Made by a program: the position numbers and the translations under genes. Positions 12,806-60,925 of a stretch of 64,000 nucleotides of DNA are shown here, in pieces. The notes beneath the pieces are model-generated. The model made no database searches. It was given only the letters and a program-made list of their open reading frames with translations, and was not told where the DNA came from. The DNA comes from Eledone cirrhosa (taxonomy: Eukaryota): assembly GCA_964016885.1 (NCBI GenBank), contig OZ024742.1:246388001-246452000 (forward strand), given 5' to 3'. Positions within the stretch are counted from its first letter, which is position 1. Every line of letters begins with the position of its first letter.

Positions 12806-13086
12806 AATGTAGGAATTCAAATGCAGAAAATTACTCTAACAACATTCGATCGGTATAAATAATAGTTTTAGAAAAGTGGGTAAAATACCCTTAGGAACGG
12901 AAAAAGTGGCCAGCATTATGTATTGCCATCGACTGTTGTTGCAGTTATTTTCTGCGTTTGGATTTCTACATTTTCAAATGTTAAACCACTTAATCGCTTT
13001 AACCTGAATAGAAAAGTGGCAGTGATATTGAAGTTTCATCTTGGTCGCTTCATCTAGCAGTCAGATGAAGCGACAAAGATGAAACA
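12806..13086. repeat. Two degenerate fold-backs next to (TA)n: arms ~12806-12862/12916-12972, and hairpin ~13033-13085 with a hammerhead-like half (AGATGAAG...GAAAC)
   Basis: Reverse-complement matches read by eye. Confidence 0.55.
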
Positions 13087-13222
13087 TCAAAGTAAGGGCC
13101 TTATTTCCACTCAGAACATATAATTTACACACTCTCTAGTTATAAGTATTTAGGGTTCATACAGCTAACGCTTAAATGTTTTAAATACAATGGTATTTTG
13201 ATCAATCTCTATTATATATATA

Positions 13223-13890
13223 TAATAGAATTAGAATTTAGATTCGAGCATAGTTGTATACAGATATGTATCGGAATTTTGTATTTCTAAAGAAATATGG
13301 TAACATTTAGAAAGCAAAAGCACCTGCGGCTATCGCCAACTGGCGGTGTCCAGCAGAAGCAAAGGGGACAATCGTCGATGCATTTTGAACTGAACTAGTT
13401 CTCACCATAACGATCCCTCCCGCTCTTGCAACTGCTGGACTAGAAAACAGGTGAGAATATATAGTTTCTCGTCTGTGTAAATGAGGCGATTAATCTCATT
13501 TGAACACGAGGCTGTATAAGTTGGCTCAACTTATAATAGAATAGAATTAGAATTTAGCCTCGAGCATAGCTGTATACAGATATGTATTGGAATTTCGTAT
13601 TTCTAAAGAAAGCCGTAGCTATGCAAAAACAGCTGCCAATGTTTTCATTGCTATGGCTTTTTAAATGTTTATTTATAAACATACCGTATTTCTTTAGAAA
13701 TACGAAATTCAAATGCATATTTGTATACAGCTATGTTCGAAGCTAAATTCTAATTCTATACAGCTTCATATGCAAATGAGATTAATCACCTTATTTACAC
13801 AGACGAAAAAACTATATATTTTCACCTGTTTTCAAAGTCCAGCAGTTGCAAGAGCGGGAGAGATCGTCATGACGATAACTAGTTGAGTTC
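13223..13890. mobile_element. Old fold-back element with partial tandem copy: direct repeat 13223-13295/13540-13610; inverted arms ~13388-13610/13690-13890
   Basis: For example gctcttgcaactgctggac is mirrored by gtccagcagttgcaagagc, and aatagaattagaattta is repeated. Starts at a TA tract. Confidence 0.65.
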
Positions 13891-14256
13891 TTATTGTTTT
13901 TGCCATTTTATTTGTTGGTCACAGTCACGTGATTGGCCATATAATATAGGCGCCAGAAATGGGTGGTTAGTCGTGGAAAGTTTGTGCCAAACAAAAGATA
14001 ATGGTAAAAAAATGGGAGAGGGAAAATTAGTTCTGGTTCACTGAGTTTGACTGAGGTTTCAACATTCAGACTTTCTACTGAAATAAATTGAATGTTTGTG
14101 TCGATAGTGATGACAGCGGCGATGGTGGTGGTAGGGTATTCTTTTACTATTTTACCTGTTCCAGCCATCCGTGCTTGTGTATGTAGCAAAGTGGTTTATC
14201 GTCTTGATAATAGGAATAAAATTGATTCCATTAATAGAAATGGAAAAGGGCGTTAT

Positions 14257-14353
14257 GTGTGTGTGTGTGTGTGTGTGTGTGTGTGTGTGTGTGTGTGTGT
14301 GTGTGTGTGTGTGTGTGTGTGTGTGTGTGTGTGTGTGTGTGTGTGTGTGTGTG
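14257..14353. repeat. (TG)n microsatellite
   Basis: Directly visible. Confidence 0.95.
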
Positions 14354-15240
14354 ATGGCTAGCATGTTAAGGTGTTAAAATATTAACGTATATTAAACTAT
14401 ATTTGATGCTGGTCTATTTTTTCGTATAAAACAAAGAATTTTCGGAAACGAACTAGATGCGAGACAAACCACAACAGAAACACCAAACCCTCCATCTCAA
14501 TTCTACTTTTGAAAATCATAAGAACTGTGAAACCGGTAACGTAAATAAATAAATATTCTTAAAAGACTTCAGTTGCATTTTTAATTTCTTTTCCTTATAT
14601 ATATATATATATATATATATATAGTTAGAGAAGCAAAAAATTGCTTATTGTGATCCAGTTTTTGGTTAAGAAAGCCAGTTTCATGGATGGTTTCAACGTA
14701 CGGTTAGGGGTAACTCCACAAGTTTGTAAGAATTCCGTTCAATCTTGGAGTATAAAGTATAAAAGAGAAAACACAGGTAAGCATTAAGAGATGGATTTTA
14801 TCCAGGTATATACGACCGTTTCATTGGTAAGTGCAACCTTATATTGCTATACTGCAAATAGCAGCCACTCAATTATAATTGTTGTCCACAGTCCAAATTT
14901 TCAAAATAGTAAGTTACTCTTGAAATAATTCTTAATATATAGAGAAAAACATTTATTTGGAATTGTATTTACTAGTATAGAGAGAGAGAGGAATCAGGAG
15001 GTGAGGCGACAAATGGAATAGTATAGAGAGAGAGGAAGGGGGAGAGGTAGGAAGTAGAGTGACAAACTGAGATGGAGGGGTAGAGGTGGAAGGATTCCTT
15101 GGTCAGTTTTGATAGCAGACTTCATGTCGTGGAATGTAGTGAGTTAAAGAGGATTAAATTGATCATAGTGGAAGGGATGGATAGGGAGGGAGAGATAGGG
15201 AGGGGGATATAAAGAGATAAATATATATATATATTTATCT

Positions 15241-15357
15241 TTCCAGCATAGTTACGTCCCTTTACGATCTGAATTCAAATCCCGCTGAGGTTAACTTTGC
15301 CTTTCATCCTTACGGGGTCGATAAAATAAAGTACCAAACAGTAGAAACAATTATTAA
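15241..15357 (+). mobile_element. 5'-truncated tRNA-derived SINE (major family in this window)
   Basis: B-box-like GAATTCAAATCC followed by the core GTTAACTTTGCCTTTCATCCTTACGGGGTCGATAAAATAAAGTACCA shared by more than 12 copies. Confidence 0.8.
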
Positions 15358-15809
15358 TATTCGAAAAACTCAGATTACATTTATGTATATACATATATAT
15401 ATATATGTATATACGTATATACATATATATTGATTTTTAGGTCAACAATCTATGGTGTATTCAATCTATGGTGTTGAAAAAATAAAAGCTTCTTCTTACC
15501 ATATTATATATATACAAAGAGCGTGAACCTAATAAACTTTTATTTGTACTGCCTCTCTATTTTTGTTCCCGTCCAAGTTTTCACTATATATATATATATA
15601 TATATATATATATATATATATATATATATATATATATATATATATATATATAACACTGTACGGCGTAATTCGGGCTGTTTGTTTGTTTACAAACAAACCG
15701 AACATTATAATAAATGTTCGGTAAACCCATACGTACATATATATATGTGTGCATGTATGTATATATATACATACTACTGTACGTCTGTATACATATATGC
15801 ATGTACAGT

Positions 15810-58685: not shown

Positions 58686-58883
58686 ATTTTATATATATAT
58701 CACTATATCACACGCTGATACATACACACATATGTCTCTGTCTGTCTGTCTGTCTCTCTCTCTCTCGCTATATATACACATACACACACACACATATATA
58801 TATACATATACACACATAATATATATATATATATATATATACACATACACATACACACATATATATAATATATATATATATAT

Positions 58884-59102
58884 ATAGTTATGTAATAGAC
58901 AACAAGATAATTATTTCATTTACCAGTGGTTTGCTTTCAATCATCAGCATTCTGATGATTGAAAGCAAATTTTGTTTGCTTTCAAGAAACCACTGGTAAC
59001 TGAAATAATTATCTATGTTGTTTATTACATAACTATTAAGCTCTGTAACCTACATAGAGCACTCTTTTTTCCTGGACCTTTCCGACGGAATTACTTCATT
59101 CA
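58884..59102. mobile_element. Fold-back U (58884-59036) with HHR core at 58952-58998 and right tail
   Basis: CTGATGA-ttgaaagcaaa/tttgctttcaa-GAAA-ccactgg-TA; the 5' strand of stem I is lost at the apex; tail hairpin GCTCT...AGAGCAC. Confidence 0.75.
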
Positions 59103-59163
59103 TATATATATAAACAAATTAACTCGAAAATAGAGTTTTGAGACGCGAGTGTATTAAAATTCT

Positions 59164-59563
59164 CAGAGAAATGGGAAAACTCGGTGCATGGAAGATATTA
59201 GAACAGAAAAATACCGTGGAAGCGGCGTTGGGTAAAATATTAGCTCGACGTGAGTTGACTCGAAGGAAGAAAACGATGATAGGATGGAGGAAAAAGAATA
59301 GATGAAAGCGAACAAACATTAAAATATGCTCTTCAGATTTCAACCTCCTGCAGTTTCGAGGACTGCAGGAGGTTGAGATCTGAAGAGCATATTTTGCTTT
59401 CATCCATTCTTTTTCCTTCATCCTATCTTCTCTTCCTTCCTTCGAGTCAACTCACATCGAGCCGCTGATCTCTGTTCTTCGAGGTAATACTCTACCCAAC
59501 GCCGTTTCGACGGTATGTTGCTCTTCTAACAGCTTCCATGCACCGAGTTTTCCCATTTCCTGA
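59164..59563. mobile_element. Diverged fold-back V (arms ~59164-59354 / 59362-59563)
   Basis: gaaatgggaaaactcggtgcatggaag is mirrored at the right end; CTGAAGA near the apex. Confidence 0.7.
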
Positions 59564-59644
59564 AAAAAAAAAAAAAAAATATATATATATATATATACGG
59601 TATATAAATATATAAAATATATATTTTGCAAGATTTCTTATCTG

Positions 59645-59930
59645 AAAACGTTTGTTTCAACAGTTATTTTTATACTTTGGGAGGGTCATGCTGCCAATAA
59701 AAACACCTGCACTTTTTGGTTTTGACTTCAAATTTCCGGTTGGCTGGTTCAATAACCGGATGGTTGTTAATATATTATCAAAGTTCATTCCTCACACATT
59801 CTGTGACCTCCTCAATGACTGATTTGCTATATTATTTTGTGTCTCTCCTTTGTTCTGTCCTACACCATCTACAAAAACAAGATGGTGTAGGACAGAACAA
59901 AGGTGAGACACAATAACAGATCAGTCACGA
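59645..59930 (-). mobile_element. Family I-related copy with degenerate HHR and a local fold-back (~59834-59915)
   Basis: Reverse-complement homolog of 28280-28540. Confidence 0.65.
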
Positions 59931-60676
59931 ACAACGAGGAACATTGTACTACAGAGTGGCCTATCAAACCTGAACTTTCCCAGGTAGCATCAATGTTGCT
60001 TGATATCGCTGGAGGATGTGATTCTATTGAAAGGTTCCGAAATTCTCCTGTCGACAACAGATGAAGGGAATGTCCCATTGTGCAAGCTGTATGTAAAATA
60101 TTAATGTATTGTAGCTCTAATATGGAATTATGGCATTTCTTTCAGCCTTTTACGAGACAGTATGTCATGAAACAGGACTCTTCAATTGGAATTTAGACAG
60201 CATCAACTAGATAATGAGGTACGTATATCTGTATGTGTTGGTTTGTGCGTATGTGTGTGTGTGAGTGTGTGTTGTGTGTGTATGCGTGTGTGGTGTGTGT
60301 GCAGGCATGGATGGTATTGCATGTGTGGACCCGTATGTGTTGTGTTATATGCGCACGCACACACACACACACACACACGCACACACACACACACACACAC
60401 ACACACACACACACACACACACACACACACACACACACACACACACACGTATGTATATATATATATATATATTTGTGTTTTATATATCAATACATGTATA
60501 TATATATATATATATATATATATATATATATATATATATATATACATGTATTGATATAAAAAACACACTCACAGACACACACACATATATATATATATAT
60601 ACGTGTGTGTGTGTGTGCGTGCGCATATAACACAACGCACACACACACACACATATACATATATATATATATATAT

Positions 60677-60925
60677 AGCAAGTAAGTATGTTTTGAAACA
60701 GTGAGCAGTTTTGAAATTAGAAAATATATAGCTTTCACCGTATTTTTGACTAAAGGAATTTTAGCCTGATAATGGGGTTTTAGAACCCTCAGATAAATGG
60801 AAAAAGATGAGTATTGACGTACGTCAATACTCATCTTTTTCCATTTATCTGAGGGTTCTAAAACCCCATTATCAGGCTAAAATTCCTTTAGTCAAAAATA
60901 CGGTGAAAGCTATATATTTTCTAAT
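60677..60925. mobile_element. Fold-back S copy 2 (palindrome 60716-60925, same apex, left tail)
   Basis: Opposite orientation to copy 1 and a different short-arm end point. Confidence 0.85.

What the first reader, a model, noticed from the sequence alone, without database searches (positions are those of the whole stretch)
12806..60925. A recurring system: hammerhead-carrying fold-back insertions from many unrelated families in (TA)n tracts
Seen: at least 12 palindromic inserts (F 16334, M 23356, H 23827, I 24041, N 28546, O 31569, Q 32832, R 57735, S 57920 and 60716, T 58183, U 58884, V 59164) lie in or beside TA microsatellites. Most share one layout: a short arm ending in 2-5 nt of TA microhomology with the flank, a turn-around, and an inverted longer arm carrying an extra ~15-120 nt tail. 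About 10 distinct type I HHRs are present in the window, many with palindromic stem III (tgcgca, tgatca, caattg, ctgcag, aacgtt). The coding PLE at 16731-20828 has the same layout. Known: PLEs carry HHRs in pLTRs and often have an inverted 5' pLTR with a tail. Inference: a PLE RT/GIY-YIG enzyme acting in trans mass-produces hairpin DNA, placing ribozymes on both strands so that read-through transcripts in either direction could self-cleave or form long dsRNA (potential ADAR/siRNA substrate in a cephalopod). The density and family diversity look unusual.
Basis: partly seen in the sequence, partly recalled or inferred. Interest (0 to 1): 0.8.

Follow-up and report, generated by a model that had tools for sequence, protein, structure and literature searches.

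The report
Two-ended Penelope retroelement fold-back insertions
The hairpin-shaped inserts are real and are mostly the stubby ends of several Penelope-like jumping genes, a known pattern, but their ends suggest that each one was likely built by two copying reactions started on opposite DNA strands that met head to head, often at the predicted start of the element's RNA.

Summary
All 13 listed palindromes are real. Only 2 of 13 (F, H) carry an intact hammerhead motif in their arms. They are 5'-truncated head-to-head insertions of Penelope-like elements (PLEs). F, H, I and R are ends of coding families with their own RT/GIY-YIG genes. M, N, O and S are short non-coding repeat units (M and N retrozyme-like, S tRNA-headed). 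The window's PLE copy is broken and cannot be the source. The layout (inverted copy, tail, TA target) is published, and this scan noted it in other genomes. Not found in my searches: 100 of 103 mapped fold-backs join one tailed and one untailed end; in 36 of 100 neither arm can be a copy of the other; 78 of 100 have an arm ending at one fixed 5' site, TATA/Inr-like in two families, with excess extra G (26/58 vs 22/99). This favours twin-primed copying of capped sense RNA over the published antisense self-priming idea. A 390-kb sample extrapolates to about 170,000 such inserts. Read-through RNA is predicted to bury the hammerhead in double-stranded RNA rather than self-cleave. Expression was not tested.

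The parts
16252..16671 (.). F: head-to-head fold-back of a coding PLE family; tail on the left arm; intact type I hammerhead motifs at 16434-16380 (-) and 16571-16625 (+); turns at the family's modal 5' site
   Evidence: 9,998 exact copies of a 28-mer; 821-aa RT/GIY-YIG ORF in long copy L061
16731..20828 (+). G: 5'-truncated, broken coding PLE with inverted tailed left arm (16731-17230), ORF remnant to 18794 with two stops after it, SINE-like repeat inserted at 20479-20672, hammerhead motifs at 16920 (-) and 20729 (+)
   Evidence: 92 scored relatives at 89-100% identity, the window copy included
23360..23750 (.). M: fold-back of a non-coding ~430-bp tandem unit whose family carries a minimal hammerhead; this copy's long arm starts at the cleavage site (23487), so it holds no ribozyme core
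   Evidence: (3,907 exact matches)
23831..24021 (.). H: fold-back of a coding PLE family; intact hammerhead motifs on both arms (23880 -, 23894 +); turns at the modal 5' site 30 nt below TATAAATA in long copies
   Evidence: 10,768 exact matches; ORF in L196, L197
24044..24623 (.). I: fold-back of a coding PLE family with a 1,216-codon stop-free frame (4.13-kb tandem unit); weak hammerhead-like core at 24319; the tail encodes the ORF start
   Evidence: (224 exact matches)
24730..25430 (+). PLE endonuclease fragment followed by a minimal hammerhead motif (25363-25392); not a fold-back
25653..25702 (-). Hammerhead motif in a dispersed repeat that has further copies at 21307 and 27461
28546..29257 (.). 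N: inverted arm plus 1.3 units of a non-coding 478-bp tandem family; intact hammerhead motif 29101-29169 (+); the inverted arm starts at the cleavage site
   Evidence: (272 exact matches)
31454..32219 (.). O: fold-back of a non-coding ~570-bp tandem unit, tail on the left, no hammerhead motif found
   Evidence: (9 exact matches)
32372..32399 (-). Minimal hammerhead motif in a non-palindromic repeat
32705..32957 (.). Q: AT-rich fold-back (arms from 32832) with a left extension; family unresolved
57733..57872 (.). R: 60-bp fold-back plus 77-nt tail; end of a coding PLE family without a canonical hammerhead
   Evidence: 9,726 exact matches; endonuclease C-terminus upstream in L176
57926..58159 (.). 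S, first copy: fold-back of a non-coding unit whose longer copies have a tRNA-like head; no hammerhead motif
   Evidence: (5 exact matches)
58184..58670 (.). T: old fold-back (arms 66-86% alike) with a decayed hammerhead core; no ORF found upstream of 34 hits
58886..59103 (.). U: fold-back with hammerhead core at 58952 but a broken stem I; intact motif in other copies of the family
59164..59563 (.). V: old fold-back; only the window's two arms match exactly; family unresolved
59597..59913 (-). W: end of a coding PLE family related to I, with a short inverted arm at its 5' end; second copy at 28286-28545
60677..60923 (.). S, second copy: perfect 105-bp arms, tail on the left, short end 13 nt longer than in the first copy

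Best explanation
These inserts are 5'-truncated, head-to-head insertions of several Penelope-like retroelement families and of short non-coding repeat units that likely borrow their enzymes, and each insert likely forms by twin target-primed reverse transcription of capped sense RNA. Shown: F, H, I and R are ends of elements with their own coding regions; nearly every insert joins one tailed and one untailed 3' end, both facing outward into (TA)n; the two arms end 5' independently; coding families F, H and R have one modal 5' site. Inferred: the RT/GIY-YIG protein, probably a dimer, nicks both strands of a (TA)n tract; one nick primes at the downstream start site (tailed arm) and the other at the upstream start site (untailed arm); each cDNA grows until it drops off or runs off the capped 5' end at the pLTR transcription start, sometimes copying the cap as an extra G; the two cDNA ends are joined with 0-6 nt of overlap or a few added bases and filled in. 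Priming in the 5' pLTR of the mRNA would give the very short palindromes. The hammerhead is a passenger that lies between the 5' site and the priming sites in some families.
For: Length continuum from about 90 bp to 5 kb between inverted F motifs. PLE ORF matches in 18 of 20 long F copies, ORFs in long H and I copies, endonuclease end upstream of R. Two 3' end classes in F, H, R, I and G and in M, N and O. One tailed plus one untailed end in 128 of 141 inverted insertions and 100 of 103 fully mapped fold-backs (p about 4e-26). Untailed arm reaches further 5' than the tailed arm in 36 of 100, and in 8 the arms share under 15 nt, so neither arm is a copy of the other. At least one arm within 6 nt of the modal 5' site in 78 of 100; in 39 of 43 for R, whose search motif lies at the 3' end. 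TATAAATA at -30 (H) and TATTTATT at -31 with TCAGT/TTAGT at +1 (R) (motif names recalled). G before the modal site in 26 of 58 arms vs 22 of 99 control ends, Fisher p=0.003; an extra G is read as the mRNA cap in L1 insertions (PMC11702581). M, N and O 5' ends are scattered, as expected for multimeric or circular templates. Arms of one insertion share a source: 0.9% vs 3.6% difference in F, 47 sample-private variants in both arms. In vitro, an Anolis PLE cuts and extends both strands, starts at two sites that bracket the tail and is predicted to be a dimer (PMC11167929).
Against: No RNA data, so the 5' site is a predicted transcription start only. F has no TATA box at -30, and family I has few arms at a fixed site (2 of 8). 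The extra G is driven by F and H (15 of 29 vs 4 of 42); in R alone it is not enriched (11 of 29 vs 18 of 57). In 64 of 100 fold-backs the untailed arm is nested in or equal to the tailed arm, which a snap-back model also allows. F and H loci were chosen with motifs near the 5' site, which inflates their share of arms ending there, and nearly all targeted F, H, R and M loci come from one contig. Shared variants show a common source lineage, not one RNA molecule. Target-site duplications cannot be read inside (TA)n. T, U, V and Q could not be tied to an ORF or a repeat unit.
Confidence: 0.62

Rival explanations
1. PLE products made by self-priming: one cDNA, or an antisense template, folds back on itself, and the endonuclease trims the second end to give the tail (the reading of Arkhipova 2013 and Craig 2021).
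For: Published proposal (PMC3846280; PMC8557442). Perfect palindromes with no loop occur (F, S). Arms share variants. 64 of 100 fold-backs have nested or equal arms.
Against: 36 of 100 are not nested and 8 barely overlap. A fixed 5' end with excess G points to a capped sense RNA. A larger tandem intermediate cut by the endonuclease could still give non-nested arms, so this rival is weakened, not excluded.
Confidence: 0.22
2. One active PLE enzyme works in trans on many unrelated RNAs and spreads functional two-way ribozyme cassettes that process read-through transcripts.
For: Four non-coding unit families (M, N, O, S) show the same layout and must borrow an enzyme. About 74 intact motifs per Mb in the sample.
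Against: F, H, I, R and W have their own coding regions. The window's PLE is broken. 11 of 13 palindromes lack an intact motif in their arms. The antisense arm is predicted to bury the motif. PLE hammerheads cleave weakly in vitro (PMC4209133). Hammerhead cut sites are not the modal 5' ends (M 2 of 39, N 2 of 25).
Confidence: 0.08
3. MITEs or foldback DNA transposons with terminal inverted repeats and TA target duplications.
For: Inverted arms, TA flanks, thousands of copies.
Against: Ends are asymmetric in 100 of 103, internal junctions vary from copy to copy, and the arms run into RT genes.
Confidence: 0.03
4. Assembly or library artefact (fold-back chimeric reads).
For: The specific O junction was not bridged by any listed contig or read in 4 runs.
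Against: Arms have diverged by up to 30%; ends fall on two exact family sites; a SINE-like repeat interrupts one G arm; raw reads of three other samples show the F short end followed by (TA)n and an opposite-strand joint (12, 8 and 5 reads from only 1-2 start places each).
Confidence: 0.02

Closest known systems
Canonical endonuclease-positive Penelope-like element insertions (Craig et al. 2021, PMC8557442; Arkhipova et al. 2013, PMC3846280)
   Same: RT plus C-terminal GIY-YIG ORF, pLTR, adjacent inverted 5'-truncated copy, tail at one end, AT-rich or (TA)n targets, TATA/Inr-like motifs in the pLTR, heavy 5' truncation.
   Different: Tails here are about 55-150 nt rather than 30-40 nt. Many inserts are only two pLTR stubs. 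The one-tailed-one-untailed rule, the non-nested arms and the fixed 5' end with extra G were not in the passages I read.
PAc (Poseidon of Anolis) in vitro mechanism (Frangieh et al. 2024, PMC11167929)
   Same: Two RT start sites bracketing the tail, AT-rich cleavage, both strands cut and extended, hammerhead not needed for insertion.
   Different: That study found no strand difference in start-site use and did not explain inverted copies; here the two sites are almost always used once each per insertion.
Non-LTR retrozymes (Cervera and de la Pena 2020, PMC7229834; Li et al. 2026 preprint 10.64898/2026.07.22.740005)
   Same: M and N are non-coding tandem units with one type I hammerhead per unit and co-occur with PLEs.
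   Different: N (478 bp) is a little above the 150-450 bp range; M and N carry PLE-type tailed/untailed ends and inverted arms, a direct sign of PLE mobilisation; circular RNA was not tested. O and S lack a hammerhead.
L1 twin priming (as described in PMC11702581)
   Same: Second primer from the opposite target strand gives an inverted 5' part; extra G at full-length 5' ends.
   Different: L1's second primer lands at variable internal sites and inversions are a minority; here the second site is fixed, the arms overlap, and inversion is very common.

Membership tests
EN+ Penelope-like element (F, G, H, I, R, W) | Single ORF with PLE-type RT and C-terminal GIY-YIG endonuclease | tested here: met
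   YxDD, Y-G-T-R-H and Cys motifs aligned in F, G, H and I; weak Pfam GIY-YIG hit for H only (E 0.022); for R and W only the C-terminal part was seen. No Pfam RT hit and no PDB hit, so the RT call rests on motifs recalled from the family.
EN+ Penelope-like element (F, G, H, I, R, W) | pLTR from partial tandems, inverted 5' copy and tail | tested here: met
   Tandems in L065, L078, L197, L201-203; the tail continues into the ORF start; inverted copies.
EN+ Penelope-like element (F, G, H, I, R, W) | Type I hammerhead motif in the pLTR | tested here: inconclusive
   Met for F, G and H; weak in I and W; none seen in R.
EN+ Penelope-like element (F, G, H, I, R, W) | Clade placement (Penelope/Poseidon, Neptune, Nematis, Hydra) by RT phylogeny | not tested
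   No named reference PLE proteins were at hand; no tree was built.
Non-LTR retrozyme (M, N) | Non-coding tandem unit of a few hundred bp, low GC, one type I hammerhead per unit | tested here: met
   M ~430 bp and N 478 bp units with one motif each; N slightly above the published range.
Non-LTR retrozyme (M, N) | Self-cleavage and circular RNA expression | not testable with these tools
   No RNA run could be examined.
Non-LTR retrozyme (O, S) | Hammerhead in the unit | tested here: not met
   No motif seen in O or S units.
tRNA-derived SINE (S) | tRNA-like head with A and B boxes | tested here: met
   ARAGORN calls a tRNA-like gene in 2 of 2 longer copies tested; Pol III transcription not tested.
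MITE / foldback DNA transposon | Symmetric fixed terminal inverted repeats | tested here: not met
   100 of 103 fold-backs have two different ends.
MITE / foldback DNA transposon | TA target-site duplication | not testable with these tools
   Insertions lie inside (TA)n, where a duplication cannot be read.

The most novel reading that the evidence does not exclude
This genome holds a fossil record of over a hundred thousand PLE insertions that fixes the class's unsolved mechanism: every insertion is two-ended, a dimer uses each of two RNA start sites once on opposite target strands, and run-off to the capped start of the mRNA mass-produces minimal palindromes, like a retroviral strong-stop product that gets integrated. 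The same machinery also spreads retrozymes and a tRNA-headed SINE, a pairing I did not find in print.
Probability: 0.45. Interest if true: 0.65.

Novelty: new member of a known kind. Interest (0 to 1): 0.4.

Why it matters
How PLEs make their inverted copies and tails is called undefined in the papers I read, and PLE RTs are the closest relatives of telomerase. The counts here turn that question into direct predictions: both strands primed, one start site each, capped sense template, mappable transcription starts. They also tie retrozyme-like units to PLE-type integration ends. An estimated 170,000 fold-backs and 220,000 intact hammerhead motifs would make this genome rich in potential double-stranded RNA, which could matter if the host is a cephalopod with heavy RNA editing; that link is untested.

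Tried and rejected
Hammerhead cleavage as the source of the fixed 5' ends: suggested by the window's M and N copies, but only 2 of 39 M and 2 of 25 N arms start at the cut site, and the H site lies just 5' of the motif. Rfam found no hammerhead. My first descriptor missed motifs with a mismatch at the base of stem II. A DNA search of the genome with F found nothing, not even the window, because common words are skipped. Pfam and PDB did not recognise the PLE RTs. Single-motif folding energies were mostly no better than shuffles and carry no weight. Stalling of the tailed arm near the upstream start site: 16 of 36 vs 9.3 expected (p=0.012, post hoc), kept as a hint only. No RNA holder listed. 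The O junction was not bridged in 4 runs. No ORF was found upstream of T, V or Q hits; PLE matches upstream of U, S and O hits belonged to neighbouring elements. Literature searches for 'twin priming' with Penelope, pLTR with transcription start, PLE-mobilised tRNA SINEs and recent mechanism papers listed nothing describing these rules; I judged most of those hits from the listing only.
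Full report
Observation. The window lies on contig C3 of a 3.0-Gb genome. 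All 13 listed palindromes exist. Outside the large satellite my census found 17 fold-backs, 10 with a (TA)n tract abutting one end and another within 160 nt of the other end. A relaxed type I hammerhead descriptor finds 10 motifs of 7 types, against 0.01 in shuffles. Only F and H among the 13 hold an intact motif in their arms. The coding element G does too.

What the inserts are. A 28-mer from F has 9,998 exact matches. The first 100 listed places come largely as minus-plus pairs spaced from about 90 bp to 5 kb. Of 20 long copies fetched, 18 match PLE proteins, and one has an 821-codon open frame with RT and GIY-YIG motifs. H (10,768 matches) and I (224) have their own ORFs in long copies. 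R (9,726) has a PLE endonuclease end upstream in L176. F, G and H proteins are 35-53% identical and I is about 20% identical to F, so these are separate families. G in the window lacks its N-terminus and has two stops. M (3,907 matches, ~430-bp unit), N (272, 478 bp), O (9, ~570 bp) and S (5, ~270 bp in one locus) occur as short non-coding tandems. M and N carry one hammerhead per unit; longer S copies have a tRNA-like head. T, U, V and Q stay unassigned; no genome-wide search was run for U or Q.

End anatomy. Mapping arms onto single natural copies shows two 3' end classes in every family mapped; hits under 88% identity (82%), short hits and hits at locus edges were dropped. Among 141 inverted insertions of F, H, R, I and G, 128 pair one tailed with one untailed end; several exceptions are internal tandem junctions. 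Among 103 fold-backs with a fully mapped junction, 100 do. The untailed arm reaches more than 3 nt further 5' in 36 of 100, the tailed arm in 17, and they are equal in 47. In the 36 neither arm contains the other, because the tail is only on one arm and the extra 5' part only on the other. Junctions show up to 6 nt of overlap or up to 18 added bases. Arms of one insertion differ less than arms of different insertions (F 0.9% vs 3.6%).

The 5' site. F, H and R arms pile up at one 5' position. 78 of 100 fold-backs have an arm within 6 nt of it; for R, where the search motif was at the 3' end, 39 of 43. In H and R it lies 30-31 nt below a TATA-like box, and in R it matches an initiator-like TCAGT/TTAGT (motif names recalled). 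F has no such box. The base before the site is G in 26 of 58 arms vs 22 of 99 control ends (p=0.003); F and H drive this and R alone shows no excess. In L1 such a G is read as the copied cap (PMC11702581, passages). The non-coding units M, N and O have scattered 5' ends. The hammerhead cut site is not the modal end.

Mechanism. Shown: family identity, end pairing, non-nested arms, modal 5' site, G excess. Inferred: both strands of (TA)n are nicked and primed, one at each RNA start site; the cDNAs stop early or run off the capped 5' end and are joined head to head. This fits the in vitro behaviour of the Anolis element (PMC11167929, parts 1-2 of 4 read). It argues against self-priming on an antisense template (PMC3846280, passages and Discussion), though a larger intermediate trimmed by the endonuclease is not excluded. 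I put 0.9 on PLE origin and about 0.6 on the full twin-priming and run-off model.

Function claims. A transcript through F folds into one long hairpin. The antisense arm comes first on either strand, and forcing hammerhead stem I costs 97 kcal/mol in F and 76 in H, against 0 and 1.6 for the lone arms. Two-way self-cleavage is therefore unlikely; dsRNA is plausible if the inserts are transcribed. PLE hammerheads are weak in vitro (PMC4209133, passages).

Scale and reality. In 39 evenly spaced 10-kb stretches of large contigs there were 60 fold-backs, 22 with the layout, and 29 intact hammerhead motifs (shuffles 0-1). This extrapolates to about 170,000 inserts (bootstrap 92,000-253,000) and 220,000 motifs (138,000-315,000). 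The axolotl has up to 120,000 retrozyme copies (PMC7229834, passages). The window is 2-3 times denser than the sample. Raw reads from three other samples show the F short end next to (TA)n and an opposite-strand joint, from few start places. The O junction itself was not bridged.

Comparison and novelty. Inverted 5' copies, tails and (TA)n bias are published (PMC8557442, passages), and retrozymes are proposed PLE derivatives (preprint 10.64898/2026.07.22.740005, part 1 of 5). Earlier notes of this scan report the same kind of insert in other genomes. The elements are new members of known kinds. The quantitative end rules were not found in searches, but older subscription papers on Penelope structure and promoter were not available, and I read no supplements; those of the Anolis paper may bear on the end analysis.

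Noticed in passing
window 17217-17366: At the head-to-head junction of G a 12-nt unit copied from the end of the left arm is repeated about 13 times. It could be reiterative copying by a telomerase-related RT or later slippage; no other such junction repeat was seen in 50 long F and G loci scanned.
   Followed up: partly
window 57926-58159, 60677-60923; L103, L139, L209: Family S has a tRNA-like head and PLE-type ends. Both window copies and L103 fold at the 3' strand of the tRNA acceptor stem. Possible PLE-mobilised SINE.
   Followed up: partly
window 1131-12352: Two tandem non-LTR retrotransposon copies, 81% alike, each with an ORF1 and an endonuclease/RT ORF (Pfam RVT_1, zf-RVT, Exo_endo_phos); the first ORF2 is open for 1,089 codons. 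A fragment lies at 62407-63027.
   Followed up: partly
window about 36000-55700: About 20 kb of TG/TA-rich complex satellite, preceded by a GC-richer minisatellite at 34177-35300.
   Followed up: no
window 15239, 20479, 29877-30970, 35308-36004, 61644-63264: Many copies of one SINE-like repeat, often in clusters; one interrupts the right arm of G.
   Followed up: no
   Followed up: partly
L201-L204 and window 24279-24300, 28286, 59870: Families I and W have an AAxATGGCG motif near their 5' junctions, resembling a YY1-type core promoter (recalled), and their tails encode the first residues of the ORF. The I protein has a long asparagine-rich stretch.
   Followed up: partly
L024, L130, L277: Three F insertions share the same added bases at the 5' junction, making a short self-complementary centre, which hints at untemplated additions that anneal to each other.
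   Followed up: no
loci L001-L314: Insertions of different families are often stacked in the same (TA)n tract, separated by short TA runs, so one insertion site seems to seed the next.
   Followed up: no
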